Shown: positions 29,559 to 62,433 of the stretch, one piece after another | How the letters are laid out: each line of letters opens with the position of its first letter | How positions within the stretch are numbered: the first letter of the stretch is position 1 | Source: a virus | Lineage: Duplodnaviria; Caudoviricetes | IMG/VR virus record: IMGVR_UViG_2508501111_000003 | Coordinates: 14,762-78,761 of that record | Direction: 5' to 3' (one strand) | DNA: 64,000 bases | The notes under the pieces: generated by a model | Databases searched by the model: none | The model's input: only the letters and a program-made list of their open reading frames with translations | Told to the model about the DNA's origin: nothing | Made by a program: the position numbers and the translations under genes

Positions 29559-29567
29559 TGACCCCTC

Positions 29568-35341: not shown

Positions 35342-35357
35342 AGGGGTCTCCAATGAG

Positions 35358-36085: not shown

Positions 36086-36142
36086 GGGTGTGTATCCTTT
36101 GCAAATGTTAATCAAACCAAACCTTCTCGCGCTCTCAACCCC

Positions 36143-36739: not shown

Positions 36740-36781
36740 TCCAACCTCCTTTGTAGTGAAATCGGTCGAAATCGATTTGAT

Positions 36782-37593: not shown

Positions 37594-37596
37594 GAC

Positions 37597-38007: not shown

Positions 38008-38010
38008 CTC

Positions 38011-38403: not shown

Positions 38404-38405
38404 GC

Positions 38406-38795: not shown

Positions 38796-38845
38796 GAAAA
38801 CACTCCTTTGAATCAATTGAATGATTGCAACCTTCTCCTTACCCC

Positions 38846-39934: not shown

Positions 39935-39991
39935 ACCAACAAACTCCTAAACAGATTGATGATTGAATGAATAACGATGCCTTCGCCCTGC

Positions 39992-40612: not shown

Positions 40613-40614
40613 GA

Positions 40615-41346: not shown

Positions 41347-41352
41347 CGGTAA

Positions 41353-41823: not shown

Positions 41824-42065
41824 ACCTTTGGCTTTCGATTCGGTGCCGCTTCACATCCCCGTGCGGGTGGATCACCAACGCGGGATGGATGGATGCATGG
41901 ATGGGTGAAGTCATCAAAAGACAGCAACCGTGTGGTCATTGGATACGGCCCGAGACTCAATGACCGAAGCGATTCGCGAAGCTGTTCCGCTTTCAACGCG
42001 AACGCTGAATCGACCTCCGCCTGTAGTGCTCGCATTGCTTGCGCGGCATCATTGAATTCCATCAT
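41784..42065 (-). CDS. Hypothetical protein
   Basis: GGAGG RBS, coupled to the upstream stop. Confidence 0.5.
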   Translation of the reverse strand: MMEFNDAAQAMRALQAEVDSAFALKAEQLRESLRSLSLGPYPMTTRLLSFDDFTHPCIHPSRVGDPPARGCEAAPNRKPKVWESVRWQPRRKH

Positions 42066-43057
42066 TGCGCCATCCTCCGTAATGCTTCGACCGTGGTGAC
42101 TTGGGTGTTTGCACCCCACACCCCACCGCTGTGGACGGTTGCTAAATCTTCAAACTGAAAGACACCCTTTTGCCATAAGGCGTAGCGCCCTGGACCAAGC
42201 ATTGATCGTTGGGTTGCTGCGTCCTGTTGCAGAAACCATTGCTTGCCCGTTGGGATCGCCAGCGGCTCGCGGCCTCTTAAAATGGGCACGATAGTGCATC
42301 TGCACTGAGGGTGTAGCGGCATCATCACATTGGTTGGATAGACCGTACCATCGAGCGCCAAACATGCCAGACAGGTACGCCGCTGGCGTGCCGCGATGCG
42401 CATGTAAGCGTCGGCTAAGCCACTCGTTTGATACTGCTGCAACGCAGCCAAGCGTGCTGCTCGAATCGACTGATCACGGGTCAATAACAAGGCATGATTG
42501 AGACTGGTTGCTAAGCCGTCATTGACCATCATCCGCGCCGTGATGCGCGGATTCTTCCCTAACGCAAGGCCACTCAACAGGGCATCGGTGATGGCTTGGG
42601 CCGTTTCCGGATAGGCGTTGCTCAGCAAGAGCGCCAAGGGATTGTCAGCCCGTGCCAACGCGGCAATGTTTTCAAATGCGCCGCTGTTCAACTGCGTGAA
42701 TGACCCTTGAATCGCGCCGGAATAGCGCAACCACGCCGTGGCCTGCTCCGCGCCCATACTGGCAAAACTCAACTGCTGGGCTTGCATGATGGCCGCTGCA
42801 TCGGCGTTGTACTTGGCCAATTCCCGCTGGAGCTGCACCAACAACGCTTGGTAGCGCTCGTTCGCATACAGTTGCGATTCACTGACCGTTTGCCCATCAG
42901 CTTTGGTCTGACTCATTTGAAACGCCAACGCTTCCATTTCGGCCTGCAACGCCGCTTCGACCGTGCGCCAGCGTGTGGTCAGCGCGTCCATCGCACTCGC
43001 GTTCTGCGCCTGAAGCTCAGCACGGAATTGATTGGCAATGGCAACCGCGTCGATCAT
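42062..43057 (-). CDS. Minor head morphogenesis protein (SPP1 gp7/Mu F-like)
   Basis: TCLAC and PLHPQCRC motifs. Confidence 0.88.
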   Translation of the reverse strand: MIDAVAIANQFRAELQAQNASAMDALTTRWRTVEAALQAEMEALAFQMSQTKADGQTVSESQLYANERYQALLVQLQRELAKYNADAAAIMQAQQLSFASMGAEQATAWLRYSGAIQGSFTQLNSGAFENIAALARADNPLALLLSNAYPETAQAITDALLSGLALGKNPRITARMMVNDGLATSLNHALLLTRDQSIRAARLAALQQYQTSGLADAYMRIAARQRRTCLACLALDGTVYPTNVMMPLHPQCRCTIVPILRGREPLAIPTGKQWFLQQDAATQRSMLGPGRYALWQKGVFQFEDLATVHSGGVWGANTQVTTVEALRRMAQ

Positions 43058-44625
43058 GCGGGCTGCTCCAATCCGGTGCTAGCAGCACCACTATCAAGTC
43101 GCGCTTGCTGCATTGCCAAGGCTGCGCCTAAACTTCGAGCGCTACGAGCCTGCTTTTCTTCCTGCTCGGCAGCAATGCGAGCCTTTTCAGCATCGACATC
43201 TTCAACATCAATCAGACTCAAGAACAGGTCGTGACTAATGGCCCCTTTTTCATAGGCGGCCAATAAAAAGTTGCGTTCCTCGCTGCTCAGGCTACCCAGC
43301 CACAACCGTGGCGTGACATCGGCGCGGAGACTATCAAAGGCTTGAGCACGACCTGCAAAATGCGCCGCCAACGCGAGGGCCGCTTCGAGCACCCAGCGCA
43401 CCAGCTGCTTGAGGGCCGTGGCCGTTGGCCCAAGCGACATCGCAAAATCCAACAACGCTTGTTTGCGGCTTTCCCCACTCGCCACCGCGTCACCACTCAG
43501 CAGCGCATGCAGTTGCTTGCACTCCTTGAGCATCCGGCTATAAATCGCTGCGTCGGTATCGATGAACGTGCCAACGGGAACGGGTTCACGCCATTGCACC
43601 GATGGGGTGGTGTAACCCGTGATGCGCTCAATCTGCCCATCTTTTTCACGCATCGGCAGCCCAATTAAATTGGTGGTTTTGCCCGGCCCGATGTCATACG
43701 GGCGATACACCCGCAACTTTTTACCCGGGTTGGCCGGGTCGTCTACTTCATCAAACGGCATTTGAGCATTGGTCATGACCCGCTCAACAAAGCCACTAAT
43801 CACAATGTTGTGTTGGAGCATGGTCAGGGTCATATTGAGCGCCTTCTGCATTTGTTGCATGGACAACCCGATCAAGGGCTTGCAGACGATTTCGATCATC
43901 AGCAAATGACCCATCAGCGGTAGCCGTGTTTCGCCAGTCATTGCCTCGCCTTCGAGCGTGCGCATCACGGTTTGGCCTTCATCGATAAAGGTCACTTCTG
44001 CGACTTCTTTTTTATTGTCATTCGTATAGACATAGACCCCACATGCCTGCATCGTGGCTTTATCACGGCTCACCCCTGCTTGCTCGGGCGCTAACCAATC
44101 GAGCCAAATCAGGTTCAAGGCATCGGCCAAGGTTTCTTGGACTTGAATCACGTTGTCTTCGACATAGGCGGGTGGAACAAACAAGCGGAGCACGGCGCGA
44201 CCATGCACCACGGCGGTGGCAATGCTTTCTTGCAGGATACCGAGTACATTGCGCTGATCCCACCAACTCGTCATGGCGGCTTCGGCCTCATCAAGCAAAC
44301 CTTGCTCTTGGGGATTGGGTTGTTCCTCCTCTAGTAGCGGACGACGCACGGCATAGCTCCACTGGGGTTCACGGCCACACACGGCATTGGCGTGGCGCTC
44401 AATCACCTCGGCAATCACGTTGCTGGAAACAAACTCGCGCTGAATGCGAGTCATGACCTCGGTCGCGCCTTTATCCGTTGACGCAGGAGCTGGACCAGTC
44501 CACGCCGCCCCACCCTGCCAGTGATCGCCATCGCGAAACAGCACCGCACTTTTGACCGCTTCCGGCGTAGTTGGCAAGCGTTTTTTGGCGACTTCGACCG
44601 AGAGATTGTCAAAGGCTGTTGGCAT
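43054..44625 (-). CDS. Portal protein
   Basis: 523 aa after terminase; DGDHWQ and SGESRKQAL patterns. Confidence 0.85.
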   Translation of the reverse strand: MPTAFDNLSVEVAKKRLPTTPEAVKSAVLFRDGDHWQGGAAWTGPAPASTDKGATEVMTRIQREFVSSNVIAEVIERHANAVCGREPQWSYAVRRPLLEEEQPNPQEQGLLDEAEAAMTSWWDQRNVLGILQESIATAVVHGRAVLRLFVPPAYVEDNVIQVQETLADALNLIWLDWLAPEQAGVSRDKATMQACGVYVYTNDNKKEVAEVTFIDEGQTVMRTLEGEAMTGETRLPLMGHLLMIEIVCKPLIGLSMQQMQKALNMTLTMLQHNIVISGFVERVMTNAQMPFDEVDDPANPGKKLRVYRPYDIGPGKTTNLIGLPMREKDGQIERITGYTTPSVQWREPVPVGTFIDTDAAIYSRMLKECKQLHALLSGDAVASGESRKQALLDFAMSLGPTATALKQLVRWVLEAALALAAHFAGRAQAFDSLRADVTPRLWLGSLSSEERNFLLAAYEKGAISHDLFLSLIDVEDVDAEKARIAAEQEEKQARSARSLGAALAMQQARLDSGAASTGLEQPA

Positions 44626-44633
44626 CGATACCT

Positions 44634-46067
44634 CTAGTAGCTATTCCACGAGCCAGCCATGGCTTCGTCTTCGACTTCCATTGGTTGACTGGCAACCATC
44701 AGGGCAATGGCCCATGCCATCACGAAATCATCGTGATAGCCTGCGGGTGCGCCCGTCCCGCCGTTCTTCAAAATCCGATAAATCGCCAGTTCATTCAGCG
44801 CCGTTTGATTGCGAATTGTGACCAACACATCGCGCAGTGCCGTGGCGAACAAGTCAATCATTTGCGGCTTGGTCTGCGCATTGGTGAGCCACCCTGCTCG
44901 CCCATCAAGGCCATACACGATGCGGGTGAATCCGGCCAGTTTCATCGTGGTCAATACCGCGTGACCGTGATTGTTCCGCTCAACCGCAACCGTGGCCCCG
45001 TACACGTCTGACAAATTCATGAGAATGCGAGCGTATTCGTCCGGTTCCCATTTGCCGTGGACGCTGGCCATTTCTTCCCACGACACCGCATCGATCAAGG
45101 TGGCAGCGCAGAAGTCGCCGTGCTCCAGCCCTTCGGCCACGTCCGCTGCCAGAATGTAGCGTCGTCCTTGCTGCGGCAGGTGGTAAACGGTCACGCCGTC
45201 CAGGAGCGAGAGCGATGCTGGAAGCTCATCGAGCGCAAGGCCATCGCTGGGATTTTGCTTCAGCAGCCATGGCATTTTGAATCGCGTGCGCCCTGACACC
45301 AAAAAGGCTTCTTGCGCGGTTGAGGGATATTCTTGCCGCACCATGTCCGGGTCGGTATATTCCTCAAGCTGGTTGTGATACCACGCCGCATCCCGCGTTG
45401 GTCGTGCCCACCACGGTAAAAAGATCGTGGTAAAGCGATTTTTGGCACTGATGGCCTTGAGCCACAGTTGATGAAACAGATTGCCAATCCCATTGGCCGT
45501 CGATAAGACAATCAGTTGGCCGCCGCCGTCGATCGTGGGCTTGAGCGCGGTATACAACTGGGTTGCCCAGAGCAGGAACGCGGCTTCGTCCAAAATCACC
45601 AGTGATGCCGTAAAGCTGCGACCTGCCCCTTTGGTCGCGGGGAGTGACTTGACCCGACTGCCATTGGCCCATTCCAGTTCGGTCGTGTTGTCCGTGACTA
45701 GCGCTGGCGAGGCCTCACGCATCCACTCGGGTAAGCGTTCATACAAGCGCTTGACCCGTTGCAGCATCTCATCGGCTTCGCCTTGGCCTTTGCTGAAGAT
45801 CAGCACCACTTTGCCCGGTTGGAAGAGGCAGAGCCACAACGCATAGGCGCAACACAACCAACTAATGCCTAATTGCCGTGCCTTGAGAATCAAGACCAAA
45901 CGCTGGATTAAGAGTGTCCAGAGCACCTGTACTTGGGCAGGCCAGAGCGTAAAGGGCATCGCGCCGCTGCCATCCCCCAACCCTTGGGCATCGTCGATTA
46001 ATCCGAAGTGGTGGGTGAAGTAGGCAGGGTCGGCATGGCACTTTGCCAGTTCGACAGCATTCGACAT
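44634..46067 (-). CDS. terL: Terminase large subunit
   Basis: LKARQLGIS Walker A, LVILDEAA Walker B, ADVAEG and HDDFVMA nuclease motifs. Confidence 0.95.
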   Translation of the reverse strand: MSNAVELAKCHADPAYFTHHFGLIDDAQGLGDGSGAMPFTLWPAQVQVLWTLLIQRLVLILKARQLGISWLCCAYALWLCLFQPGKVVLIFSKGQGEADEMLQRVKRLYERLPEWMREASPALVTDNTTELEWANGSRVKSLPATKGAGRSFTASLVILDEAAFLLWATQLYTALKPTIDGGGQLIVLSTANGIGNLFHQLWLKAISAKNRFTTIFLPWWARPTRDAAWYHNQLEEYTDPDMVRQEYPSTAQEAFLVSGRTRFKMPWLLKQNPSDGLALDELPASLSLLDGVTVYHLPQQGRRYILAADVAEGLEHGDFCAATLIDAVSWEEMASVHGKWEPDEYARILMNLSDVYGATVAVERNNHGHAVLTTMKLAGFTRIVYGLDGRAGWLTNAQTKPQMIDLFATALRDVLVTIRNQTALNELAIYRILKNGGTGAPAGYHDDFVMAWAIALMVASQPMEVEDEAMAGSWNSY

Positions 46068-46717
46068 TGTTCCTCACGCCACTGCTGCAATTCCTTGGCA
46101 GCCTGTTCCAACGCTGGACTATCAATCACAATCGGCGCACTGCGATCCCCTTTATGCACATGTTCTTGTTTCTGCTTGCGACCTCCCGTTTCCTTGGCCA
46201 AGTCATCGAGCACCCCGCGATAATCACTAATGAGGGCCGAGTTGTAGCGGTAGATTTCAACCTGCTCGGCATACTCGCCTGCCCCGATTTGTTTGACATC
46301 GCGTATCCATACATTCGGTCGCTTGTGTGGGTGATGTTCGTCAACCTCTTTAATTTGTTCTTCTAAATCCTTAGCCAACTCCTTGAGCTTGATCACCCGC
46401 TCGAAGTCAAGGCCTAAGCCGTCTTCAAACACCTCACGTCGTCGAGCGGCCAGCGCATCATTTTTTGCTTGCTCCAGCTGCGCATCATAGGCTTTCGCAC
46501 GATCGGTCCAATGGAATTCGGTTGACCAGTGAGCCAGTGTTTTGAAGCGAACTGTTGGCGGTTTGTTGGCGGTTTGTTGGCGGTAGCGCTCAAGCAAGAT
46601 GCGTAACGAACGCCCACTCCCAAGGCGCAGATAATCGTTGCAGGCGACTACCGCCTTATCCGATTCGGTGGCGTGACGTTGACCTGTGATAAGTTGTAGT
46701 GGTTCGTGCGTGGTCAT
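45998..46717 (-). CDS. terS: Terminase small subunit (probable)
   Basis: Overlaps the terL start; HTH-like N-terminus with WxxRAxAYD. Confidence 0.7.
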   Translation of the reverse strand: MTTHEPLQLITGQRHATESDKAVVACNDYLRLGSGRSLRILLERYRQQTANKPPTVRFKTLAHWSTEFHWTDRAKAYDAQLEQAKNDALAARRREVFEDGLGLDFERVIKLKELAKDLEEQIKEVDEHHPHKRPNVWIRDVKQIGAGEYAEQVEIYRYNSALISDYRGVLDDLAKETGGRKQKQEHVHKGDRSAPIVIDSPALEQAAKELQQWREEQCRMLSNWQSAMPTLPTSPTTSD

Positions 46718-46848
46718 TGCTCGCCGCCTCGGTCGTTTCGCCGCTGGCGCGGCGGATAATATTAAGCGTCTTGCGATAGGTCATCGCTGATGACGATGAA
46801 GAAACACAGAACAAAGCCGATGGAGATCAGCGCACACCAGAGCATGGA

Positions 46849-47184
46849 TTATGCGGATTCCTGCATCTTTTTCTGCTTTTCAGCCATCACGAGATCGCGG
46901 AGCAGGGTTTCGCTGAATGGCAAGCCATACTGGGTAAGATAGCCACTAGCAACCTGCACCGCTTTGGTCAATAGATCCTCAGCCTTAAGGCCGTGGGCTT
47001 CGGCTGCTCGCAAGCCTGCTTTCACTGCTCCATAAAGCGCGGCACGTTGCTCTGCCCCAAGATTGGCAGCAGCCCAAGTGTTCAAGGCGTTTGCCGCTTT
47101 GGGGGCAGCCGATTTGAGAAAACCAACAGCGAACGAGAGGGTGGTCACAATGACCAGCGCGATGGCGGTTTGAGTTAGGGTCAT
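46849..47184 (-). CDS. Putative LL-H-type holin
   Basis: Single N-terminal TM; AVxAxxxAAE...KxxxA pattern. Confidence 0.6.
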   Translation of the reverse strand: MTLTQTAIALVIVTTLSFAVGFLKSAAPKAANALNTWAAANLGAEQRAALYGAVKAGLRAAEAHGLKAEDLLTKAVQVASGYLTQYGLPFSETLLRDLVMAEKQKKMQESA

Positions 47185-47630
47185 ACCGATGCTCCTTGTC
47201 CAAGGGGTGATAATAATTCATCAATGGGGTCAAGCCCCGTGTGTTGATCGTCGGTTCGTGGAGAGGTGGTTGGGCGATCAAGGCCTGCCCGCCGAGGCTT
47301 TTTGGGCAAGGGGATCTGATGGTGATGACAGGTGTCTTCGAGGGCTTGGATGTACAACTGGGCATCCATGAGCGCATAGGCATCGATCGTCCAGCGTTCA
47401 CGGGCATTGATCACTTCACGCCGCAAGGCGCTCAGCGCCAAATCGAACTGGGCACTGAGTGCCGCCAGTTCGCGTTTAGCCGCATCACGCACGGCATGCA
47501 ACTCGGCTTTCAAGCTAACGTTTTCGCGGACAACCGAGAGGTAGCCCCGCGCAAACATCCATGCCCCAACCATCACGACAATGGTGAGGCCGATCAGCCA
47601 TACCACCGCACCAATCAGTAGACTATCCAT
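47181..47630 (-). CDS. Membrane-anchored coiled-coil protein (first late gene, lysis-associated?)
   Basis: N-terminal TM followed by a coiled coil. Confidence 0.6.
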   Translation of the reverse strand: MDSLLIGAVVWLIGLTIVVMVGAWMFARGYLSVVRENVSLKAELHAVRDAAKRELAALSAQFDLALSALRREVINARERWTIDAYALMDAQLYIQALEDTCHHHQIPLPKKPRRAGLDRPTTSPRTDDQHTGLDPIDELLSPLGQGASV

Positions 47631-47695
47631 AGATCCCCAACCACATCAGGAGGAAGCGAAGGCCAGGCAAGAAGGGGTTTGCACAGAAAGGAGGA

Positions 47696-47741
47696 AAACA
47701 AAAAGCAACAGGTTAAATTGGTCTGTGCAGACCCCTGTTGC
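47696..47741 (-). terminator. Leader terminator right after the late promoter
   Basis: GCAACAGG...CCTGTTGC followed by TTTTTGTTTT; inner GGTCTG/CAGACC hairpin. Confidence 0.8.
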
Positions 47742-47749
47742 TTGCGAGG

Positions 47750-47777
47750 ATTATAGCACGTCTGTGCTGTTTGTCAA
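47750..47777 (-). promoter_or_regulatory. Consensus sigma70 late promoter, copy 1
   Basis: TTGACA-N16-TATAAT on the minus strand; TATCCCA repeats at 47794, 47804 and 47813 upstream. Confidence 0.85.
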
Positions 47778-47980
47778 TGAAAATAAAGCGAATTATCCCA
47801 ACTTATCCCACATATCCCACATCTTTAATAAAAATGATGTTGCAATTGAAATCCTTACATAGAGCGAATCTGATAATCTTCAATTATAGGCTCTGTCTAT
47901 GATTCAATGTTGTAACATACAACATGAAACTCTAAATCTTTTTTTTCGTAAAGAGGCAAAGTTAAAATGGAAGGAATTAT

Positions 47981-48328
47981 ATGGAATGGCAAAATCTTAC
48001 AATACAAATTCTATTTATGATTCTAGGACTATTGAGTTTTCTATATATGATTATTGGTCTATATAAATGGGTTGTATCAGGAGGAAATAGATATAATATT
48101 TATGAATCAATAAATATTATAAGTGATAGTATAATTATATTGATTATTGTAATTTCCTCTATTATTTTAGGTTATATACTGAAAATGGAATTTAATCAAG
48201 AATGGGCTATTATGATATCACTATTGTTTATGATATTTATGATATATTTGTATAAAAAAAGGATAATTTATTTATATAAATTTGATTACAAAAAAGATGA
48301 TGAAGGAAATGGGGATATATATGAATAA
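47981..48328 (+). CDS. Small 3-TM membrane protein
   Basis: Very AT-rich; overlaps the next start. Confidence 0.75.
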   Translation: MEWQNLTIQILFMILGLLSFLYMIIGLYKWVVSGGNRYNIYESINIISDSIIILIIVISSIILGYILKMEFNQEWAIMISLLFMIFMIYLYKKRIIYLYKFDYKKDDEGNGDIYE

Positions 48329-48683
48329 AATAGAATTTCATCAAGAAGCAAAAGAACTTGTTGTTAAATACAGAGAAGATTATGTAAAAGATATTATATT
48401 TCATTCGAGAAATAAAGCAATTATAGATAAAGATGAAATTGTATTAAAAAAGCATGTCCTATTTGCTATTGATAAAATTTATGCTAATAAAGAGAAAAAA
48501 TGGAAAGATGAAATGCTTAATATAATAGGTGGGATTTTTCTTGGTACCGGGCTGCAAGGTTTTATTAACGAATTAGGAATACCTGAAATTCGTATACCAT
48601 TACTTATTATTTATGTAATTATGCTTATTATTGGTGCAATATGTGTTTCTGTGGTAATAACATCATCTCGGCGACGCATATAA
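48321..48683 (+). CDS. Histone-fold (alpha2-alpha3)-like domain fused to 2 TM helices
   Basis: Gap-free manual alignment to the archaeal HMf alpha2-L2-alpha3 pattern. Confidence 0.55.
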   Translation: MNKIEFHQEAKELVVKYREDYVKDIIFHSRNKAIIDKDEIVLKKHVLFAIDKIYANKEKKWKDEMLNIIGGIFLGTGLQGFINELGIPEIRIPLLIIYVIMLIIGAICVSVVITSSRRRI

Positions 48684-48740
48684 AATAATTAAGAATTATG
48701 AGATTATTAATATTTTATTTATATAGTTATACAATTGATA

Positions 48741-49862
48741 TTATTCAGTGCGTTTGATTTCTCGTAAATAATAACTATTACCTCGCTTTTCGCAGAATAC
48801 CTCCACTTTCTCACCCCACAATGGGCGAACAATATCATTCATCATTCCTGGGGGTACAATAATCTTTTGTTTTTTATTATCGGAGAATAGCAGTTGAATC
48901 GTGTTATTCGCTGATATTTCATCAGCATGTTTTAATTGCCCCACAAAGGTCTGATGTTTAGATTTATCCTTTTTCGTTGCTATATTACTCCCCGCGAGCG
49001 TACTTATTTCAGGTGGGGTTTTATCAAAAGCAACTGATAAGACCTCATTACTCCCGCTTTGAAGCGTAGTCAAACCAACCATACGTACATCTTGTCCATC
49101 AGGGGCTATTTTTTTTGCAAGAGCAACGAAATTATTATAGTAGGACTCATTAGGTATACGTTCTTTTAACGATTGAAAATCTCCTTTATTTACTAAACTA
49201 ATATTCTGGATAACATCTTCGAGAACAATGCTAGAAAGATCAATCTCTGGTATATCAAAGCGTTGCTGTCTACCGAGTTGCAATGTCACTGCAAAGCTTC
49301 CCGCTCGTGGGGCTGACATGTAGACGCTATAACCCTCCTGAAGAACTTGGGCTGTTCCGCCCCTTTCTCGAAATTCTCGTTTTAGTAGGCGCTCTACAGT
49401 GCGAAAAATCATTCGTTCAATATCTTGTAGCCTACTTAAGAAGATGTCCATGAGAGTAAGCCCTGGGTAAATCTCTTGGCCAGTCATTGATACTTGAACT
49501 TGACCGGGATCAATTTTAACATCACGAATTGCAAGATGTCGTTGGAAGTGAACTTGTTCGAGTAAATCGCGCAATTCTTCCGCGATCTCATATGGAGGAT
49601 TTCCTGCCAGTGCTGTAGCAATTAAACGCTCTGCTAATCGGTGTTCGTCACAGTCAAGTGCCAAGGTGGCTGCACTACGATGAAGAATGGAACGAGTAGG
49701 TTCTGTATCAAAGGGTGCTACTAATGCTGCTGCTTCTATTTCTAGGTCAAGAGCCTGTCGTGAATAGGCAATAAAACTATGGATATCTCCAGTATGTTTC
49801 GCATGAAGTGCAAGATCTGCAAAGTCCATAGCTTGCATATGGAGTTCACGTACTGATTTCAT
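48741..49862 (-). CDS. Hypothetical protein: N-terminal helical domain and C-terminal beta (OB-like) domain
   Basis: EPTRSILHRSAATLA...GNPPYEIAEELRDL; coupled to the upstream gene. Confidence 0.75.
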   Translation of the reverse strand: MKSVRELHMQAMDFADLALHAKHTGDIHSFIAYSRQALDLEIEAAALVAPFDTEPTRSILHRSAATLALDCDEHRLAERLIATALAGNPPYEIAEELRDLLEQVHFQRHLAIRDVKIDPGQVQVSMTGQEIYPGLTLMDIFLSRLQDIERMIFRTVERLLKREFRERGGTAQVLQEGYSVYMSAPRAGSFAVTLQLGRQQRFDIPEIDLSSIVLEDVIQNISLVNKGDFQSLKERIPNESYYNNFVALAKKIAPDGQDVRMVGLTTLQSGSNEVLSVAFDKTPPEISTLAGSNIATKKDKSKHQTFVGQLKHADEISANNTIQLLFSDNKKQKIIVPPGMMNDIVRPLWGEKVEVFCEKRGNSYYLREIKRTE

Positions 49863-50425
49863 TTTCGTACAACCCTTGCTGTAGGTTGACTAAATTCAAC
49901 CACAACGACATATGCAGGCATTTGCATTGAATCGGAAGGATTCGTTTGCCTCAGTTTCAATTTGACGCGATTTTCAATGTCTTTACCAGATCCTTGGCGA
50001 ATACCTGAGACTTCTAAACGGGCATCATGTTTATCAAAAGGCAGTATATCATCCCCATCCTGCTTCGCCAACCAGTAATCAAACCCTGTTCCTTTTCGTG
50101 ATCGATTGATAACCGTATAATCTGTTAGCTCAACAGCGAGGAGACAAGCAATGCCACAAGCGGCGTGTTCAGTTGTATACTCTTCATCAGTCCATGCTGC
50201 GAGATGACGAGGCGTAATTTCATCCCAATCTTCAATAACAAAGCTATGATCGGATTTTGTATCGCACCGTCGTTCCACCGATAGCTGTACACCCCGAGAA
50301 TGACGCTGATCTTCCAAACGAATTGAGCAAGCCTCGATCAGGTAGCGTCCCATATTGGGAGTTAAGCCAGGTATCTTTGTTTCTAGATCGTTGAGCTGGA
50401 GTCTTTTCGATACTGGTTGGGTCAT
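49859..50425 (-). CDS. Putative restriction-endonuclease-fold protein
   Basis: GTGFDYWL...ARLEVSG (D...ExS, PD-(D/E)XK-like). Confidence 0.6.
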   Translation of the reverse strand: MTQPVSKRLQLNDLETKIPGLTPNMGRYLIEACSIRLEDQRHSRGVQLSVERRCDTKSDHSFVIEDWDEITPRHLAAWTDEEYTTEHAACGIACLLAVELTDYTVINRSRKGTGFDYWLAKQDGDDILPFDKHDARLEVSGIRQGSGKDIENRVKLKLRQTNPSDSMQMPAYVVVVEFSQPTARVVRK

Positions 50426-50477
50426 AAAATCCTCAGCATGATAAAAAGAAAGGCTTAATTATTAGCTACAAAATTTC

Positions 50478-50867
50478 TTAGGAGGGTATTGCAAAACATA
50501 GAAGGCCTTCGTTTTGATCATCAGCACCAATAAAATAATTGCCTTGTATATGAACTTTATTTTTTAATGATCGTATTTTTGATACTATATCGTGATCATT
50601 TTGATGGACAGTGAACCAGCTAACGCCATCCCCGCCATTATTGAGACGGTCTACAAATGCTCCAAAGCTTTCAACACTTTCAAAATCAACCTGTTGAATA
50701 TTTTTATAGTCTTTCTCAATTACTCTAATAAAATGCTGTGGATAGGATTTTTTTAATGCTTCTAATCTTTGTTTATCCTCTTCTAGTAACAAATCGTTAC
50801 TTTCGGCAGTTCGTAACTGTAACCACATAACAAACCTCCAACTTACTTTGATAAAGATATTCCACAT
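50478..50867 (-). CDS. Hypothetical protein
   Basis: AT-rich ORF, 129 aa. Confidence 0.6.
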   Translation of the reverse strand: MWNIFIKVSWRFVMWLQLRTAESNDLLLEEDKQRLEALKKSYPQHFIRVIEKDYKNIQQVDFESVESFGAFVDRLNNGGDGVSWFTVHQNDHDIVSKIRSLKNKVHIQGNYFIGADDQNEGLLCFAIPS

Positions 50868-51426
50868 ATTTAATATAGTGGGTTGTAGTCTATCACCTCC
50901 TAACGAACGCTACAAGACAAACATTTGTGCTTAAACAAAAACACCACCCAACTGGGTGGTGCTTGCAGTCCCCTCGCGAGCCTTAGTAACCTTGAGTGGC
51001 AGAACTACGGAAACATAAATCCTCACGATTATTGATCGTAATCCCTGCTGAGGATTCAGGTCTTTCGAATCGATGAATATATTGGTTATAGAATCTGGGC
51101 AGATAACGCTTTTATCCCCCAAAGAGGATTCAGGTCTTTCGAATCTAAACCTAAACGATTCTAGTACCAACTGGACATACCGGTTTTAATCCCCCAGAGA
51201 GGATTCAGGTCTTTCGAATAGGCTATTGACGCGATGTTTATCCCTATGTGGGAAGAGTTTTAATCCCCCAGAGAGGATTCAGGTCTTTCGAATACCTTTA
51301 ATTCGATTCAAACCGTCGCGTAAAACTTGGGGTTTTAATCCCCCAGAGAGGATTCAGGTCTTTCGAATACCTTTAATTCGATTCAAACCGTCGCGTAAAA
51401 CTTGGGGTTTTAATCCCCCAGAGAGG

Positions 51427-53362
51427 AGGGCTGGGCTTAACATAGAATTGGTTCCCCTGCCCGATCCATCAGGGTCGGGGGGCGACACCGATCCGCCGTA
51501 GCGCGACACCCATGCCCCAATCGGGGTCGTTTTCGACACCAGGCGACTCTCTATCGGGTACGATACGGGTATCAGATCCAACCATCCCCAGAATAGGAGT
51601 CGCTGATGCTGGATCGCATCATACCAAACATCCTTCGTCGCTTCAAGCGCCCTGTGGCCACCGTGCCCGTGTCCGATGGTGCCCTGCTGCCTACCCATCC
51701 CCGTCGTCCCTGCCCGCTCTCCATGCCGGATCTCCCCCCGATCATTGCCGCTGATCCCACCGCTGCTGCGGCGCATCAGTGGCTCGCCCCCATTCCGTGG
51801 CATGCTTTGCCGCCGCTCAGTGACCGCCCTCGGCCTGGGCCACGCCCCGCGCCGCGTGCCCCCTTTCTCGCCGCGTTCCTCCTCAAACTCGATCTCCAAT
51901 TGCCCTCCATGGGGCATTTGCGCCGCTATCTCCTGCGCCATCCCGCCCTCGTCTGGACGCTCGGCTTTCCCCTTCGGCCTGACCCTGCCGCCCCGCTCGG
52001 CTTCGATGTCGCCGCCAGTGTCCCGTCGCGTCGTCAGTTTGCCCGTGTCCTGCGAACCTTACCCACGCCCATGCTCGACTTCCTCCGCATGGCGCTCGTG
52101 CGGCGCATTCGTGATGCCCTCCCCCCCGATCACCACGCCACCTTCGCCGACACCATTGCGGGCGATACCAAGCACATTTTGGCGTGGGTCAAAGAGAACA
52201 ATCCCAACCGCTTTGCCCCGGATCGCGCGAAGAAGCAGGTGCAACCCCCCGGTGATCCGGACTGTCGGCTCGGAGTCAAGCGCCGGAGTAACCAGCAGCC
52301 GACCCCCACCACCGATGGTCAATCGCCAACCCAGAGTAAGGCCGAAGCCTACTGGGGCTACGCCAGTGGCATTGTCGTCACGCGCACCCCCTTTGGCTCA
52401 ATCGTGCTTGCCGAACATACCCAACCGATCAATGCGGGCGATATGACCTATTTTGACCCGCTCATGGCGCAGGTGGAGCAGACGCTCGGTCGCCGACCGC
52501 GTAATGGCGTGTGGGATGCCGCCTTCGACAGCCAACGGGTCTACACCTACTTCCACACGGCTGGCGGGATGGCGGCGGTTCCGGTGCGGAAGCCCAACCA
52601 GCCACGGCAGTTTTCGCCCGACGGCGTGCCGCTGTGTGCCGCTGGTTTGGCCATGCCGCAACAGTTTACGTATGCCATGAACACCAATGGCCCGCCACAA
52701 GAGCGGGCACGCCATCGCTGTCCGTTGCTGTACCCGACTGCCACCGGCGAGCCATGCCCAACCAATGACAAACACTTTGCGACGGGCGGGTGTGTCACGA
52801 CGATCGGGACGCAAGTTGGGGCAACGCTGCGCTGGACGATCGATCGTGGGTCAGCGGCCTATAAAGCCTTGTATCGCGAACGCGCGTTGGTCGAACAGAT
52901 CAACAGCCAAGCGTATGCCTTGGGGATCGAATGGCCAAAACTGCGTCGTCAAAGCGCGGTCACAGCGTGGACATCCTTAATCTATGTGGTGATTAACCTG
53001 CGCGTCGTGCATCGCCAGCAGGGAACACACGACCCGATCCACGACTAACGTGGCATGCGTCTCGTCCGTGAATCGCCAGGGGGATGGCTTGGATGGATGG
53101 ACGGACGCAGCCACAGCGATCAGGGAACAGCCACAGCGGCGGATCAGGGATGATCGGTCGGCGTGATCGGCTGTCCGTGCATCAGCCAACGCCGCGCAGC
53201 AGCACACCGATGGGCTGCCGCTGCGCGGGATTGCGGGTAGCATAACGGGCGATGGGGCGGATCTGCCCACAAAAAAACCACGCAAAGCGTGGTGATCGGC
53301 CAGCGGCGGCGCGGAATGAGCGAAAAAACCTGCCAAAACCACGCAGGAATTCGTCCAGCCCT
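51427..53362 (+). mobile_element. Insertion sequence (DDE, IS4/IS5/IS1182-like), 1936 bp
   Basis: Terminal IR AGGGCTGG/CCAGCCCT; 10-bp TSD CCCAGAGAGG at 51417-51426 and 53363-53372. Confidence 0.92.
51606..53048 (+). CDS. DDE transposase
   Basis: AGDTK, WDAAFD and YRERALVE (YxxRxxxE) motifs; Cys-rich insertion. Confidence 0.9.
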   Translation: MLDRIIPNILRRFKRPVATVPVSDGALLPTHPRRPCPLSMPDLPPIIAADPTAAAAHQWLAPIPWHALPPLSDRPRPGPRPAPRAPFLAAFLLKLDLQLPSMGHLRRYLLRHPALVWTLGFPLRPDPAAPLGFDVAASVPSRRQFARVLRTLPTPMLDFLRMALVRRIRDALPPDHHATFADTIAGDTKHILAWVKENNPNRFAPDRAKKQVQPPGDPDCRLGVKRRSNQQPTPTTDGQSPTQSKAEAYWGYASGIVVTRTPFGSIVLAEHTQPINAGDMTYFDPLMAQVEQTLGRRPRNGVWDAAFDSQRVYTYFHTAGGMAAVPVRKPNQPRQFSPDGVPLCAAGLAMPQQFTYAMNTNGPPQERARHRCPLLYPTATGEPCPTNDKHFATGGCVTTIGTQVGATLRWTIDRGSAAYKALYRERALVEQINSQAYALGIEWPKLRRQSAVTAWTSLIYVVINLRVVHRQQGTHDPIHD

Positions 53363-54448
53363 CCCAGAGAGGATTCAGGTCTTTCGAATTCTTACAGGCG
53401 AACAGGCCGCTGAATACGGTCTGCGTTTTAATCCCCCAGAGAGGATTCAGGTCTTTCGAATCTTGGCTTAGATACGGCCAAAATGTATTATTACACGGCA
53501 GTTTTAATCCCCCAGAGAGGATTCAGGTCTTTCGAATTTATTATTAACCGCATGGGTGGCTATGGGGCCATCAACCCCGTTTTAATCCCCCAGAGAGGAT
53601 TCAGGTCTTTCGAATAATGAATGCGGTAGAGAAATTTCGCCCCAGAATCGATTTAGTTTTAATCCCCCAGAGAGGATTCAGGTCTTTCGAATCGATAGTT
53701 CACCCGTTCTGAGGGTACTCACCCAAAGGTTTTAATCCCCCAGAGAGGATTCAGGTCTTTCGAATGCGCTTGAGATAGCCCAGCCGCCCGCCACCAACGT
53801 TGCCAAGGTTTTAATCCCCCAGAGAGGATTCAGGTCTTTCGAATTTTGTCGTAGACAGCTACGATTTGATCGTAGTGCTCAGTTTTAATCCCCCAGAGAG
53901 GATTCAGGTCTTTCGAATAACCAAATTCCTGTGATCGAAAATGGCTTCCTGAAGGGATGTTGTTTTAATCCCCCAGAGAGGATTCAGGTCTTTCGAATAT
54001 AGCCGAGACTGGCGACATCGCGGGTTCAATTATATGGGTTTTAATCCCCCAGAGAGGATTCAGGTCTTTCGAATCAACGTCAGCGGGGTGCTGGCTGTAG
54101 CTGCGGATTTGATGGTTTTAATCCCCCAGAGAGGATTCAGGTCTTTCGAATAATAAGCAAGCTGATAGTATGGTTCGTAGCGCCAAAGGTGTTTTAATCC
54201 CCCAGAGAGGATTCAGGTCTTTCGAATTAATCGCTCACTAGCCTATTGAATTGGCGGGGCCAATGTGGTTTTAATCCCCCAGAGAGGATTCAGGTCTTTC
54301 GAATCAAGAACTTGCCCAAGTTGCTCGAACGTATTTCAAGTAGGTTTTAATCCCCCAGAGAGGATTCAGGTCTTTCGAATCTTGTAAGCGTTTTGATTTG
54401 ACCAGTGTTGGGCGGTTTTAATCCCCCAGAGAGGATTCAGGTCTTTCG

Positions 54449-54600
54449 AATATACCCCATTTTTTAGGGCTTTGCAAGGGGCTAAAATGAACGGTTTGCG
54501 CGGTCCGCTTAAATTTGTTCAATTAATGCCTATTCTGCGCTACAAATAACGGTGGAAAACTGCCTTTTAGACCATTGGAATGGGATCGCGCGGCATATAC
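54449..54600 (-). promoter_or_regulatory. CRISPR leader with candidate promoter
   Basis: Noncoding, next to perfect repeats; TTGCAA-N17-TATATT at 54477-54449 on minus. Confidence 0.6.
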
Positions 54601-54656
54601 CACTTTTTTGCCAAGTATTGGCATGATCACGGTCTTGTATTCGCTGATGCTACCGA

Positions 54657-54823
54657 ATCAGGAGGAAGCGAAGACCACGCAAGAATGGGCATGCACAGAA
54701 AAGAGGAAAACAAAAAGCAACAGGTTAAATTGGTCTATGCAGACCCCTGTTGCTTGCGAGGATTATAGTGCGTCTGTGCTGTTTGTCAACAAAAATAAGC
54801 CAACGTATCCCACATATCCCACA
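54657..54823 (-). repeat. Late-control region copy 2 (promoter 54762-54789, terminator 54707-54753)
   Basis: TTGACA-N16-TATAAT and the GCAACAGG/CCTGTTGC terminator are both conserved. Confidence 0.93.
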
Positions 54824-59861: not shown

Positions 59862-60236
59862 TCAGGCGTTCGTGGACGTTTCGACTTTCCAGCGCAAATG
59901 AGACAGGATAGCAGCACGATCATCGGGTGAGAGTTGACCCAATAAGTTCAGAAACATGCGTACCTCGGGGACGGCAGCGATGAGGACTTGGATGGTGGCA
60001 TCCTCATCGGTGGGGTGAGCGTCCACGGGAATTCCACAGGCCTCAACGAGCTGGCGGAAGGGCAGGTTGAGGCTAATGGATAAGGCATTCAAGGTACGAA
60101 GATCGGGCATGACATCGGGCTTATTGATGAGATTGGAGAGGGTTGAAACGGCAATGCCAGAGCGTGTGGCAAGTTCCCGCAACGACCAGTTGCGGGAAGC
60201 CAGTTCTTGCGACAGGAGACTGGATAACCCAAGCAT
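59862..60236 (-). CDS. XRE-family HTH repressor paralog 1
   Basis: WSLRELATRSGIAVSTLSNL...PDLRTL. Confidence 0.92.
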   Translation of the reverse strand: MLGLSSLLSQELASRNWSLRELATRSGIAVSTLSNLINKPDVMPDLRTLNALSISLNLPFRQLVEACGIPVDAHPTDEDATIQVLIAAVPEVRMFLNLLGQLSPDDRAAILSHLRWKVETSTNA

Positions 60237-60282
60237 AAAACACCTCTCGATGGAATGTGATGGAACGGACGAAAACAAGGGA

Positions 60283-60310
60283 TTGACAGATGTTCGATTT
60301 AGTGTACAAT
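60283..60310 (+). promoter_or_regulatory. Rightward promoter divergent from paralog 1
   Basis: TTGACA-N16-TACAAT. Confidence 0.65.
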
Positions 60311-60541
60311 CCGACACATAATACACGAGGTTGAAGAAACAATCAACCGGAGACGGAACTCCACGGCAAGGTGGAGCTATTTTGGGATAAAGTGTTCGAT
60401 TTGAAGAACAGTTCAAGGAATGATTATAATCATTAATCTACTGCTGTCGGATAGGTTAGTCGGATGAACGAGTTTAGAATTGCAGCTATGCTAAAACTGT
60501 ATGTCGGTTTTACGTGGGAGTTCATTGTATGGAATACCAAA

Positions 60542-60943
60542 TCAAGATTGATCAACTTCTTGGTTTATATTTTTCTGACGATGCAGACGACGCATTTCAA
60601 TATATGCCAGAACATCAGCTTGATCGAGAGGAGAAAATGTCATCATCTCTTCCACAAGACGCTGAAAGTCTGGAATTGCTGAAACAATAGTTTGTAGTCG
60701 TTGGCTGTCTTCTGATTTAGCACTAGAGACATCGAAGCCACATGCAGCAATAATTCTAGCTAGCGGGATGTCAAAAGCTTGAGCTAATGTTGCAAGATTT
60801 TCTAATTTTGGTATCTGATTTGGGTTTTTGAGGATTTTAGATATGGTTGAATCAGGAATTCCTGATATTTCAGACAACTTTGTCTGATTCCACCCTCGTG
60901 CATCCATTTCAGATTTGATGAGATAAATCAAACCTGTAGTCAT
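60542..60943 (-). CDS. XRE-family HTH repressor paralog 2
   Basis: WNQTKLSEISGIPDSTISKI...PKLENL. Confidence 0.92.
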   Translation of the reverse strand: MTTGLIYLIKSEMDARGWNQTKLSEISGIPDSTISKILKNPNQIPKLENLATLAQAFDIPLARIIAACGFDVSSAKSEDSQRLQTIVSAIPDFQRLVEEMMTFSPLDQADVLAYIEMRRLHRQKNINQEVDQS

Positions 60944-61091
60944 TATTAGGCCTTTGTTGATAGTAAATAATAATAACCATTACTTTATTTTAGAGGATAA
61001 CATATGAGCCATCTACGAGACAATTCCAGTATGTGCGAAAATTTACGTTCAAAGATTATCAAATTTGTAGATTCTATACTTGAAGCACGAA

Positions 61092-61460
61092 CTACTTCTT
61101 GTGAAGATACCCTTGAATATAAGCCTGAATTACACGTAAATCCTCAGCTTGGAGTTGTGCTAGATCTGAAACAACAGATCGTAGCTCCGGTAATGAGTTT
61201 AACAGAATCGAAATCTGTTCCTCTGGTAACTCTCCTCGAAGATCGATATCAAATCCGCAGACTGTAATCAACCGTGCTAGAGGGATATTTAATGCTTGAC
61301 TTAATCGATCAAGGGTTTCTAGTTTTGGAACCGATTGAGGGTTCTTGAAGATATTACTAAGCGTTGATCGATCAATCCCTGCGCTATCCGCAAGCTGGCT
61401 ATCTCGCCATCCTCTCGCAGTTAGTTGAACACGTAAGAATACTGCTAGTGTATTGGGCAT
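61092..61460 (-). CDS. XRE-family HTH repressor paralog 3
   Basis: WRDSQLADSAGIDRSTLSNI...PKLETL. Confidence 0.92.
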   Translation of the reverse strand: MPNTLAVFLRVQLTARGWRDSQLADSAGIDRSTLSNIFKNPQSVPKLETLDRLSQALNIPLARLITVCGFDIDLRGELPEEQISILLNSLPELRSVVSDLAQLQAEDLRVIQAYIQGYLHKK

Positions 61461-61568
61461 TTAATTCACCAATAATTTCTTGAGAATGTTTATAAATTTA
61501 TATTTTGAGGTATAGCATGAAAAAGCTGGGAGAATTGGCAGCCATGATTGATCGGATAACCAAAAACC

Positions 61569-61955
61569 TTATTTCCGATGGTTTTTTAGTGTTTCCAGAT
61601 AAATCAGAACTGAGTTTACCTCATAACTGTCTAATTCAAGAAGATGCTCTACTACAGATTGATACTCAGGCATTGCATCCATTACCGAAATTAAGCGTTG
61701 AGCTTGAATCGTAGATGTTTCACTGAATTCGAGATCAAATCCAGCCATTTCTATAATTCGCCAGAATGGTAGCTTAAAGGTTTTTGCGAATTTAACCAGA
61801 GTTTCTAGGTCAGGAGTCACATCAGGATTATCACGAAGATTTTTTAATCCCGTATACGACACGCCAGATTTAATCGACAGTGCACGTAAACTTCCCTCGA
61901 CTTCTGAGTGTTGTTTGATCTTATTTGAGAGTTGTCTCATTGTAAAAAATACCAT
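61569..61955 (-). CDS. XRE-family HTH repressor paralog 4
   Basis: SLRALSIKSGVSYTGLKNL...PDLETL. Confidence 0.9.
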   Translation of the reverse strand: MVFFTMRQLSNKIKQHSEVEGSLRALSIKSGVSYTGLKNLRDNPDVTPDLETLVKFAKTFKLPFWRIIEMAGFDLEFSETSTIQAQRLISVMDAMPEYQSVVEHLLELDSYEVNSVLIYLETLKNHRK

Positions 61956-61970
61956 ATAGCCTTTATAGGC

Positions 61971-62351
61971 CTATGTTGTGGCTCGGCGGCGTGCTAATAC
62001 TTCAAGATAGGCAAGCACTCCATCGATATCTTCTTTATCTAATTTCTGAAGGTGTTCTAATACAGGTTTATATTGAGGCATTACTTCCATAAGTTTGGAT
62101 AATCGTTTTGTATGATCAGGATCGGTTGTATCTAAATCTAGATCATATCCAGCCATTTCTACGACACGCCAGAGAGGTATATTAAATGCTCTAGAAACTT
62201 TTGATAAAGTTTCTAAACTAGGAATAACGTTGGGATTATCAATAATATTAGCAAGGGCAGATTTGGATACTCCAGTTGTTTCCTCGAACTCACGCCAAGT
62301 CCACTCGTTATCCTTCATCTGCTTTTTAAGAAAAATGGATAATTCTGTCAT
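61971..62351 (-). CDS. XRE-family HTH repressor paralog 5 (cI position)
   Basis: WTWREFEETTGVSKSALANI...PSLETL; GAGG RBS. Confidence 0.92.
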   Translation of the reverse strand: MTELSIFLKKQMKDNEWTWREFEETTGVSKSALANIIDNPNVIPSLETLSKVSRAFNIPLWRVVEMAGYDLDLDTTDPDHTKRLSKLMEVMPQYKPVLEHLQKLDKEDIDGVLAYLEVLARRRATT

Positions 62352-62404
62352 TCTGACCTCGTGGACAAGCCGATAATACTTAGTATAAGGCATTGATTGT
62401 ACTC

Positions 62405-62433
62405 TTGACAACTACAAATAACTACACTAGAAT
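62405..62433 (+). promoter_or_regulatory. Early rightward promoter (pR-like)
   Basis: TTGACA-N17-TAGAAT. Confidence 0.8.

What the first reader, a model, noticed from the sequence alone, without database searches (positions are those of the whole stretch)
51034..54600. Long cas-less CRISPR array with its own leader carried inside a prophage
Seen: 20 repeats, 19 spacers, an intact leader, trailer degeneration, and no cas gene in 64 kb. The 37-nt repeat with an AATCC/GGATT hairpin, ATTAAAAC end and variable 34-43-nt spacers resembles type I-D/III-associated repeats (family knowledge, not searched). By eye no spacer matched this window. Phage mini-arrays are usually 1-3 spacers. Inference: the phage borrows host Cas proteins, possibly including Cas1/2 acquisition, for inter-phage competition.
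Basis: partly seen in the sequence, partly recalled or inferred. Interest (0 to 1): 0.75.

Follow-up and report, generated by a model that had tools for sequence, protein, structure and literature searches.

The report
Prophage-borne CRISPR array using host Cas
A real 19-spacer CRISPR array with no cas genes of its own sits inside a 55-kb Herpetosiphon prophage and looks built to run on the host's type III-A CRISPR proteins, a rare but already known phage strategy.

Summary
There are 20 repeats of 37 nt (Rfam CRISPR-DR30) and 19 spacers of 34-43 nt, 18 of them unique. The array has a leader at 54452-54650 and a degenerate trailer repeat. No cas1, cas2, cas6, cas10 or RAMP gene lies in the window. 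This finding did not mention that a 1.94-kb DDE insertion sequence splits repeat 15.

My first reading was a chromosomal orphan array beside a phage module. Comparative data overturned it. The array lies 36 kb and 16 kb from the ends of a 55-kb element. That element is flanked by a 19/20 direct repeat of the tRNA-Gly 3' end. It carries a large serine integrase, replication genes, five XRE repressors, a head-tail module and a restriction-modification system. Congeners show both occupied and empty sites.

Related prophages in three other Herpetosiphon species carry the same repeat family at the same position, with entirely different spacers. Two syntenic prophages carry no array.

Leader and repeat hairpin match the host's type III-A array, which sits beside cas6-cas1-cas2 1.57 Mb away. 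No target was found for this array's spacers. One spacer of a sister prophage array matches a structural gene of another prophage, antisense to its mRNA.

Verdict: a new member of a known kind. Its function is inferred, not shown.

The parts
54452..54650 (-). CRISPR leader. Its repeat-proximal 60 nt are conserved with the host III-A array leader. It holds a promoter-like TTGCAA-17-TATATT at 54477-54449.
53390..54451 (-). Leader-proximal block: repeats 1-14 (all perfect) and spacers 1-14.
53365..53389 (-). 5' part (as transcribed) of split repeat 15. It includes one copy of the 9-bp target duplication CAGAGAGGA.
51428..53364 (+). Insertion sequence, 1.94 kb, 63% G+C. DDE_Tnp_1 transposase at 51606-53048, about 12-bp terminal inverted repeats. 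It is the only full copy in the genome.
51034..51427 (-). Distal block: the other half of repeat 15, repeats 16-20 (the last two degenerate) and spacers 15-19 (15 and 16 identical).
54657..54823 (-). Second copy (87% identical) of the phage late promoter-terminator element. It has a perfect TTGACA-16-TATAAT at 54789-54762 and a hairpin with a T-run, about 300 nt upstream of the first repeat.
47645..47821 (-). Late promoter-terminator element in front of the late operon (perfect promoter at 47777-47750). One copy is found in each related prophage.
47981..50867 (.). AT-rich accessory cassette (36% G+C) between array and late promoter. It holds ORFs of 115, 133, 373, 188 and 129 aa with no family match. 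The overlapping 188 + 373 aa pair mirrors the 190 aa + DUF6575 pair of the sister prophage.
27859..47639 (-). Head-tail module: terS, terL, head morphogenesis protein, major capsid, major tail protein, tape measure and two distal tail genes. A paralogous copy lies at C1:637879-657062.
59862..62411 (-). Five tandem paralogous genes of about 130 aa. The two tested by Pfam are XRE/Cro-CI HTH proteins. Read as the prophage immunity region.
23072..25849 (+). MmeI-like type IIL restriction-modification gene, carried as prophage cargo.
17627..18571 (+). Replic_Relax gene at the non-integrase end of the prophage.
15108..15127 (+). att copy: 19/20 identical to the 3' end of tRNA-Gly(TCC), which lies just outside the window at 70148-70222 (C1:1624283-1624357), and in direct orientation with it.

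Best explanation
What it is. This is a genuine CRISPR array of the Rfam CRISPR-DR30 family. It is accessory cargo of a temperate phage integrated at tRNA-Gly(TCC) in a Herpetosiphon chromosome. The prophage spans about window 15128 to 70147, or 55 kb.

Where it sits. The array lies in a variable slot between the immunity/replication region and the late promoter, and is transcribed in the same direction as the late genes.

How it most likely works (inferred):
1. The element has no cas genes, so the array depends on host proteins.
2. The pre-crRNA starts at the conserved leader promoter. It may also start at the duplicated perfect late promoter upstream.
3. The Cas6 encoded in the host type III-A locus cuts it at the shared hairpin, leaving the 8-nt tag AUUAAAAC.
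4. The crRNAs load into the Csm complex. They probably also load into the two Cmr complexes, whose loci have no cas1 or cas6 and no array in the stretches read.
5. Transcripts of incoming rival phages are then targeted. This protects both the prophage and its host (superinfection exclusion).
6. New spacers are added at the leader by the III-A-linked Cas1-Cas2.

Shown: the anatomy, the prophage boundaries, the lack of cas genes, the leader and repeat match, and spacer turnover between species.

Inferred: transcription, processing, loading, interference and acquisition.
For: Array.

Prophage limits:
- A large serine recombinase lies at C1:1622892-1624415.
- AAA_24 and DnaC-like replication genes and two tested XRE HTH genes lie beside it.
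- Homology to all 7 congeners resumes at exactly C1:1624277-82. That point is the 3' end of tRNA-Gly.
- A 19/20 direct copy of that end lies at window 15108.
- G006 has a 54-kb homologous element flanked by the same repeat. G004 and G005 have the two flanks 0.3-2 kb apart.

Cargo status:
- The same repeat family lies at the same position in the related prophages of G001 (= IMG/VR V1), G003 and G005 (= V2, H. geysericola).
- G002 and G006 have no array there.
- No spacer is shared between species.

Host match:
- Type III-A, I-D, I-B, RT-Cas1 and two Cmr loci lie elsewhere in the genome.
- The repeat is closest to the III-A array repeat (28/37). The leader is 63% identical to the III-A leader over 220 nt and 85% over the proximal 59 nt.
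- The 7-bp stem and the tail are identical.
- A III-A Cas6 orthologue is present in every congener whose prophage carries the array.

Targeting in the family:
- A G001 prophage-array spacer matches 30/33 in a head-tail ORF of the G003 prophage, antisense to its mRNA.
- A G005 chromosomal-array spacer matches 36/41 in the tape-measure gene of the G006 prophage.
Against: - There is no expression or processing evidence. No RNA run was listed.
- None of this array's 18 unique spacers has a match. I searched the host genome, the relatives' loci and GenBank phages with all of them, and ran five exact IMG/VR scans.
- An insertion sequence splits the array, and one spacer is duplicated. Both could be signs of decay.
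- The array is dispensable. Syntenic prophages in G002 and G006 lack it, as does the paralogous head-tail copy at C1:637879-657062.
- The left att copy is shared with a degraded neighbouring prophage. The element is flipped between G000 and G006, so its history is not simple and its inducibility is unknown.
- The I-D array repeat has a similar hairpin and the same tail, so the III-A assignment is not exclusive.
- The IMG/VR 'provirus' calls come from the same organisms as G001 and G005. They are not independent evidence.
Confidence: 0.7

Rival explanations
1. The array is a decaying relic. It was once acquired by the phage line, but it is no longer transcribed, processed or extended, and it does nothing today.
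For: - An insertion sequence sits inside repeat 15.
- One repeat-spacer unit is duplicated.
- The trailer is degenerate.
- No spacer target was found.
- Two syntenic prophages manage without an array.
Against: - Fourteen perfect repeats lie next to the leader.
- The leader keeps the motif shared with the III-A array and with G001:C10.
- The insertion sequence has a clean target duplication and is the only full copy in the genome, so it arrived recently.
- Array length and content differ completely between species, about 9 to 49 spacers, which indicates turnover.
Confidence: 0.17
2. The array is a chromosomal orphan array that merely lies next to phage remnants. It would be one of the host's five cas-distant arrays and not phage cargo.
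For: - The genome has other cas-distant arrays.
- The 19.8-kb head-tail paralogue shares homology only up to 47639 and has no array.
- The cassette between module and array has 36% G+C against 56% for the module.
Against: - Phage early genes, the integrase and the tRNA att site lie on the other side of the array.
- The att repeats enclose it.
- G004 and G005 have empty sites.
- The array travels with related prophages integrated at other loci under a different integrase.
Confidence: 0.08
3. The crRNAs serve the type I-D system (DNA targeting) or the RT-Cas1 adaptation module, not the III-A module.
For: - The I-D array repeat has a similar 7-bp hairpin and the same AAAAC tail.
- The I-D locus has its own Cas6.
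Against: - Repeat identity is 21/37 to the I-D repeat against 28/37 to the III-A repeat.
- Leader identity is 38% (I-D) and 39% (RT-Cas1) against 63% (III-A).
- The RT-Cas1-class leaders carry a different motif, AAAAGTGGACAC, which is absent here.
Confidence: 0.15
4. The phage uses the array against the host, for example to target host defence islands as ICP1 does.
For: None found.
Against: No spacer matches the host genome. The best hit is 21 of 22 nt.
Confidence: 0.02

Closest known systems
CRISPR arrays located in Clostridioides difficile prophages, which use the host type I-B Cas proteins (PMC4173771, PMC4556805)
   Same: - Multi-spacer arrays without cas genes lie inside temperate prophages.
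- Their repeats are compatible with host cas loci encoded in trans.
- Their spacers target other phages of the same host group.
   Different: - Here the matching host system is type III-A (Csm), possibly with Cmr, in a Chloroflexota host.
- The array sits in a fixed slot before the late promoter.
- No target is known yet for this array.
Virus-borne mini-CRISPR arrays of Sulfolobales viruses SPV1 and SPV2 (PMC6858448)
   Same: - No cas genes.
- A host-like leader precedes the array.
- The position in the genome is the same in related viruses while the spacers differ.
- The proposed role is heterotypic superinfection exclusion.
   Different: - Those arrays have 1-2 spacers in archaeal viruses. 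This one has 19, and its sister arrays have about 9-49, in a bacterial siphovirus-like prophage.
- That paper says bacteriophage mini-arrays generally lack leaders. This one has one.
Distant or orphan chromosomal arrays processed in trans, and CRISPRs on mobile elements that match chromosomal cas loci (PMC7145637)
   Same: The array lies far from cas genes but its repeat fits a cas locus elsewhere in the genome. That survey found 212 CRISPRs in 26,987 predicted prophages, so the class is rare but known.
   Different: Here the location inside a prophage is supported by att sites and empty sites, not only by a prophage predictor.

Membership tests
CRISPR array | Several near-identical direct repeats of 23-55 nt at regular spacing, separated by unique spacers of similar length | tested here: met
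   20 repeats, 18 of them perfect. Spacing is 71-80 nt. 18 of 19 spacers are unique.
CRISPR array | Match to a curated repeat family | tested here: met
   Rfam RF01341 (CRISPR-DR30): 19 hits above the gathering score.
CRISPR array | Leader at one end and a degenerate terminal repeat at the other | tested here: met
   The leader is homologous to two other array leaders. The repeats at 51108 and 51034 are degenerate.
CRISPR array | Transcribed and processed into crRNAs | not testable with these tools
   No RNA run was listed.
Integrated temperate prophage | Integrase at one end, with att direct repeats flanking the element | tested here: met
   A serine recombinase of 507 aa lies next to tRNA-Gly. 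A 19/20 repeat of the tRNA 3' end lies at window 15108 and 70147.
Integrated temperate prophage | Empty site in related genomes | tested here: met
   In G004 and G005 the tRNA and core genes lie 0.3-2 kb from the other flank. G006 has a 54-kb element between the same flanks.
Integrated temperate prophage | Packaging, head and tail genes plus immunity and replication genes | tested here: met
Integrated temperate prophage | Inducible, forming particles that carry the whole element | not testable with these tools
   No lysis genes were identified. A degraded neighbouring prophage and an inverted Replic_Relax repeat complicate the left end.
Virus-borne cas-less array that uses host Cas | No cas genes in the element | tested here: met
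   No Cas1, Cas2, Cas6, Cas10 or RAMP match between C1:1569243 and C1:1624282. Eight ORFs in and around the array cassette have no PADLOC hit.
Virus-borne cas-less array that uses host Cas | Repeat and leader compatible with a host cas locus | tested here: met
   Repeat 28/37 identical to the III-A array repeat, identical stem and tail, homologous leader. This is in silico only.
Virus-borne cas-less array that uses host Cas | Spacers target rival viruses and not the carrier | tested here: inconclusive
   No self match and no external match for this array. One sister-array spacer hits a related prophage.
Type III-A CRISPR locus array | Adjacent to the csm operon and its cas6-cas1-cas2 genes | tested here: not met
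   The csm locus is at C1:3165.6-3176.2 kb, 1.57 Mb away. The array can work with III-A, but it is not part of that locus.

The most novel reading that the evidence does not exclude
A lineage of temperate Herpetosiphon phages keeps a long CRISPR array in a fixed slot before its late operon. The array has a host-type leader and still grows, fed by the host type III-A Cas1-Cas2 and Cas6. In this genome a duplicated copy of the phage's own perfect late promoter and terminator sits in front of the leader. crRNA supply would then be tied to the phage's late (antitermination) switch. That would be phage-controlled use of host type III immunity against rival phages.
Probability: 0.2. Interest if true: 0.7.

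Novelty: new member of a known kind. Interest (0 to 1): 0.55.

Why it matters
Arrays carried by phages without cas genes are rare: 212 in about 27,000 predicted prophages in one survey (PMC7145637). Most described bacterial cases are tiny and have no leader.

Here a long array with a leader recurs at one genomic slot in related prophages of four species. The spacer content differs completely between them. The array matches a host type III-A adaptation and processing module.

If confirmed, it would be a workable natural case for two questions:
- Can host Cas1-Cas2 extend an array that belongs to a phage?
- Can type III (transcript-dependent) immunity be turned by one phage against another?

It also shows that orphan arrays in genomes with many CRISPR loci should be checked for prophage boundaries before they are called chromosomal.

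Tried and rejected
- First reading, held up to about: a chromosomal orphan array beside a 19.8-kb phage module. I based it on the limits of the paralogue, the G+C contrast, and the same flanks appearing in congeners. I rejected it when those 'flanks' proved to be phage early genes with an integrase, a tRNA att site and empty sites.
- Spacer targets. All 19 spacers gave nothing against the own genome, and all 19 gave nothing against about 0.4 Mb of relatives' loci. The whole array against GenBank phages gave no match. Spacers 1-14 searched across 12 family genomes gave only repeat-to-repeat hits. Five exact IMG/VR scans, of spacer 1 in full and of 24-mers from spacers 2-5, gave no match.
- The 24/25-nt match of spacer 9 in G001 lies in a conserved chromosomal region. 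I read it as chance.
- Pfam, PHROGs and PADLOC gave nothing for the AT-rich ORFs at 47981-50867, the 158-aa ORF or the 415-aa ORF. The protein atlas gave only unnamed clusters and a weak DUF6575-like fold, TM 0.40.
- The terL protein of this prophage has no match in the two IMG/VR records. V2 shares the module only from the portal gene onward.
- The metagenome scan for the repeat returned only large contigs that appear to be the same organism as G001/V1. No free phage genome was found.
- No cas homologues lie within about 18 kb of any related array in the congeners.
Full report
**Observation.**
- The window holds a regular array at 51034-54451 with the 37-nt unit GTTTTAATCCCCCAGAGAGGATTCAGGTCTTTCGAAT, read on the + strand.
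- Seventeen copies are perfect. One more is perfect once its halves are rejoined. The copy at 51108 has 3 mismatches and the terminal copy at 51034 about 10.
- The 19 spacers are 34-43 nt long. Spacers 15 and 16 are an exact tandem duplicate.
- Rfam CRISPR-DR30 (RF01341) scores 19 copies above its gathering threshold.
- On the minus strand the repeat ends in GGGGGATTAAAAC.
- This finding did not mention a 1.94-kb element at 51428-53364. It has 63% G+C, a DDE_Tnp_1 transposase, about 12-bp terminal inverted repeats and a 9-bp (or 6-bp) target duplication. It sits inside repeat 15 and is the only full copy in the genome.

**Host context.**
- The window is C1:1554136-1618135 of a 6.79-Mb genome with three contigs.
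- Record titles of its congeners name the genus Herpetosiphon. The replicon sizes fit what I recall for H. aurantiacus DSM 785. That is memory, not a test.
- The repeat occurs nowhere else in the genome.
- The genome has four cas1-cas2 loci:
  - type III-A, with cas10, csm2-5, two csm6 genes, cas6, cas1 and cas2, at C1:3165.6-3176.2 kb;
  - type I-D at C1:2832-2842 kb;
  - an RT-cas1-cas2 module at C1:3037-3041 kb;
  - type I-B on plasmid C2.
- It also has two Cmr loci and a further RAMP cluster, and several arrays far from any cas gene.
- None of these cas families has a match in the window.

**Which host system fits.**
- The repeat is closest to the one beside the III-A cas genes (28/37 identical). 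It is 21/37 identical to the I-D repeat.
- The III-A repeat, this repeat and the orphan array at 1.533 Mb fold into the same 7-bp stem, AAUCCUC/GGGGAUU, with a 4-nt loop and a 3' AAAAC tail. The I-D repeat gives a similar stem.
- The leader is 63% identical to the III-A array leader over 220 nt, against 33-41% for all other leaders. Over the proximal 59 nt it is 85% identical.
- The shared proximal block contains a promoter-like TTGCAA-17-TATATT that runs into the first repeat.
- The other orphan arrays carry a different leader motif, which they share with the RT-Cas1 locus.

**Is it inside a prophage?** I first thought not.
- The head-tail module at 27859-47639 holds terS, terL, a head morphogenesis protein, major capsid, major tail protein and tape measure.
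- It has an 88%-identical paralogue at C1:637879-657062. Homology stops at 47639 and that copy has no array.
- The DNA between the module and the array has only 36% G+C.

The DNA on the other side of the array changed this reading.
- It encodes five tandem paralogues, two of them confirmed as XRE/Cro-CI HTH proteins.
- Just beyond the window it encodes an AAA_24 ATPase, a DnaC-like loader and a 507-aa large serine recombinase at C1:1622892-1624415.
- Homology to all seven congeners resumes at exactly C1:1624277-82. That point is the 3' end of a tRNA-Gly(TCC) gene.
- A 19/20 direct copy of that tRNA end lies at window 15108-15127, 55.0 kb away.
- In congener G006, a 54-kb homologous element with the same integrase type is flanked by the same repeat pair, between the same two chromosomal flanks.
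- In G004 and G005, those flanks are 0.3-2 kb apart, so the site is empty.
- The array is therefore 36 kb from one end and 16 kb from the other end of a delimited integrated phage.

Caveats on the boundaries:
- The left att copy is shared with a degraded second prophage lying back to back.
- A 1.8-kb inverted Replic_Relax repeat sits there.
- The element is flipped between G000/G002/G003 and G006.

**The array as cargo.**
- Related prophages carry an array of the same repeat family (1-3 mismatches) at the same place, after the immunity region and before the late promoter. They are in G001 (identical to IMG/VR record V1), G003 (Herpetosiphon sp. NSE202) and G005 (H. geysericola DSM 7119, identical to V2). 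These arrays hold roughly 9, 49 and 33 spacers.
- The G001 and G005 elements use a different serine integrase, 30% identical, and sit at other loci. So the array travels with the phage.
- G001/V1 even has a different head-tail module behind it.
- The syntenic prophages of G002 and G006 have no array.
- No spacer is shared between species.
- A III-A Cas6 orthologue (82-97% identical) is present in six of seven congeners, including all that carry the phage array. It is absent from G006. The numbers are small and the genomes are related, so this is only suggestive.

**Regulatory anatomy.**
- A 177-bp element with a perfect TTGACA-16-TATAAT promoter and a hairpin followed by a T-run precedes the late operon at 47645-47821. 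It is found once in each related prophage.
- In this genome only, a second copy, 87% identical, lies at 54657-54823, about 300 nt upstream of the first repeat.
- The two copies bracket the array and an AT-rich cassette of unknown genes.
- Whether the upstream copy drives the array is untested.

**Targets.**
- None of the 18 unique spacers matched anything. I searched the host genome, the relatives' loci and GenBank phages with all of them, and ran five exact IMG/VR scans.
- Within the family there are two informative hits. A spacer of the G001/V1 prophage array matches 30/33 in a 142-aa ORF of the head-tail module of the G003 prophage. A spacer of the G005 chromosomal array matches 36/41 in the tape-measure gene of the G006 prophage.
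- In both, the crRNA would be complementary to the mRNA, as type III targeting requires. Two cases are too few to prove orientation bias.

**Comparison with known systems.**
- Prophage-located arrays without cas genes that use host Cas are established in C. difficile (PMC4173771, PMC4556805).
- Leader-bearing arrays of 1-2 spacers, used against sister viruses, are established in Sulfolobales viruses (PMC6858448). That paper notes that bacteriophage mini-arrays usually lack leaders.
- A survey found CRISPRs in under 1% of predicted prophages (PMC7145637).
- This case works like those. It differs in host phylum, in the matching host system (type III-A), in array length, and in a conserved slot with a host-type leader.
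- It is not a member of the III-A locus itself, since the adjacency test fails.

**Verdict.** The structural interpretation is supported by comparative evidence. The functional interpretation is plausible but unproven. This is a new member of a known kind and of moderate interest.

Noticed in passing
window 53240-53364; G000 plasmid C2:109390-109489, 137315-137437, 63363-63452: The right-end 90-125 nt of the insertion sequence recur three times on plasmid C2 (83-92% identity). One copy directly abuts the end of the type I-B array. Another lies 1.7 kb past the 22-repeat orphan array. This may be an insertion-sequence family that prefers CRISPR repeats.
   Followed up: partly
G000 C1:637879-657062 and C1:661-668 kb (L022): The paralogous head-tail copy (88% DNA identity) lies about 4 kb downstream of a complete-looking Cmr (type III-B) operon. 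The 15 kb read there showed no cas1 and no array.
   Followed up: partly
L055 (G005:C11:78000-94000); G003:C4:408-414.5 kb: At the empty tRNA-Gly site of H. geysericola, a chromosomal array of about 123 spacers with the same leader class lies about 4 kb from the att site. So this phage family integrates next to a host CRISPR locus. In G000 the matching flank now lies beside the III-A locus at 3.18 Mb, which implies a large rearrangement.
   Followed up: partly
just outside the window, at 68757-70280 (L049:4757-6280): The open frame of the serine recombinase runs 138 nt past the prophage/host junction and over the tRNA-Gly gene. Either the true stop lies earlier, or integration changes the C-terminus of the integrase.
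   Followed up: no
window 48741-50425; L044:13486-15272: An overlapping gene pair (188 + 373 aa here; 190 aa + a 405-aa DUF6575 protein in the sister prophage) sits between the array and the late promoter in both elements. The 373-aa protein has only a weak fold resemblance to DUF6575 proteins (TM 0.40). It may be a conserved accessory or exclusion module.
   Followed up: partly
window 11333-13110 and 17473-19252: A 1.8-kb inverted repeat (89% identical) carries Replic_Relax genes at the facing ends of two prophages. The segment between the copies, which holds the att copy, may invert.
   Followed up: partly
G000 C1:1533013-1533629: Another cas-less array of 9 repeats (27/37 identical to this repeat, RT-Cas1-class leader) lies 21 kb left of the window. 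It sits beside a fragment of an MmeI-like gene and remnants of a third phage module. It may be the array of the degraded neighbouring prophage.
   Followed up: no
G000 C1:2845969-2846001; plasmid C3:19780-19809: One spacer of the H. geysericola chromosomal array matches a spacer inside the G000 type I-D array (31/33). Another matches G000 plasmid C3 (28/30).
   Followed up: no
G000 C1:2309-2316 kb: A further cluster of RAMP genes with a weak Cas10-like match. It is a possible additional type III-like locus and was not typed.
   Followed up: no
window 11331-11408 and many loci in all congeners: A 78-110-nt element (87-96% identical) recurs next to Replic_Relax genes and next to CRISPR arrays in several Herpetosiphon genomes. 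Its nature is unknown.
   Followed up: no
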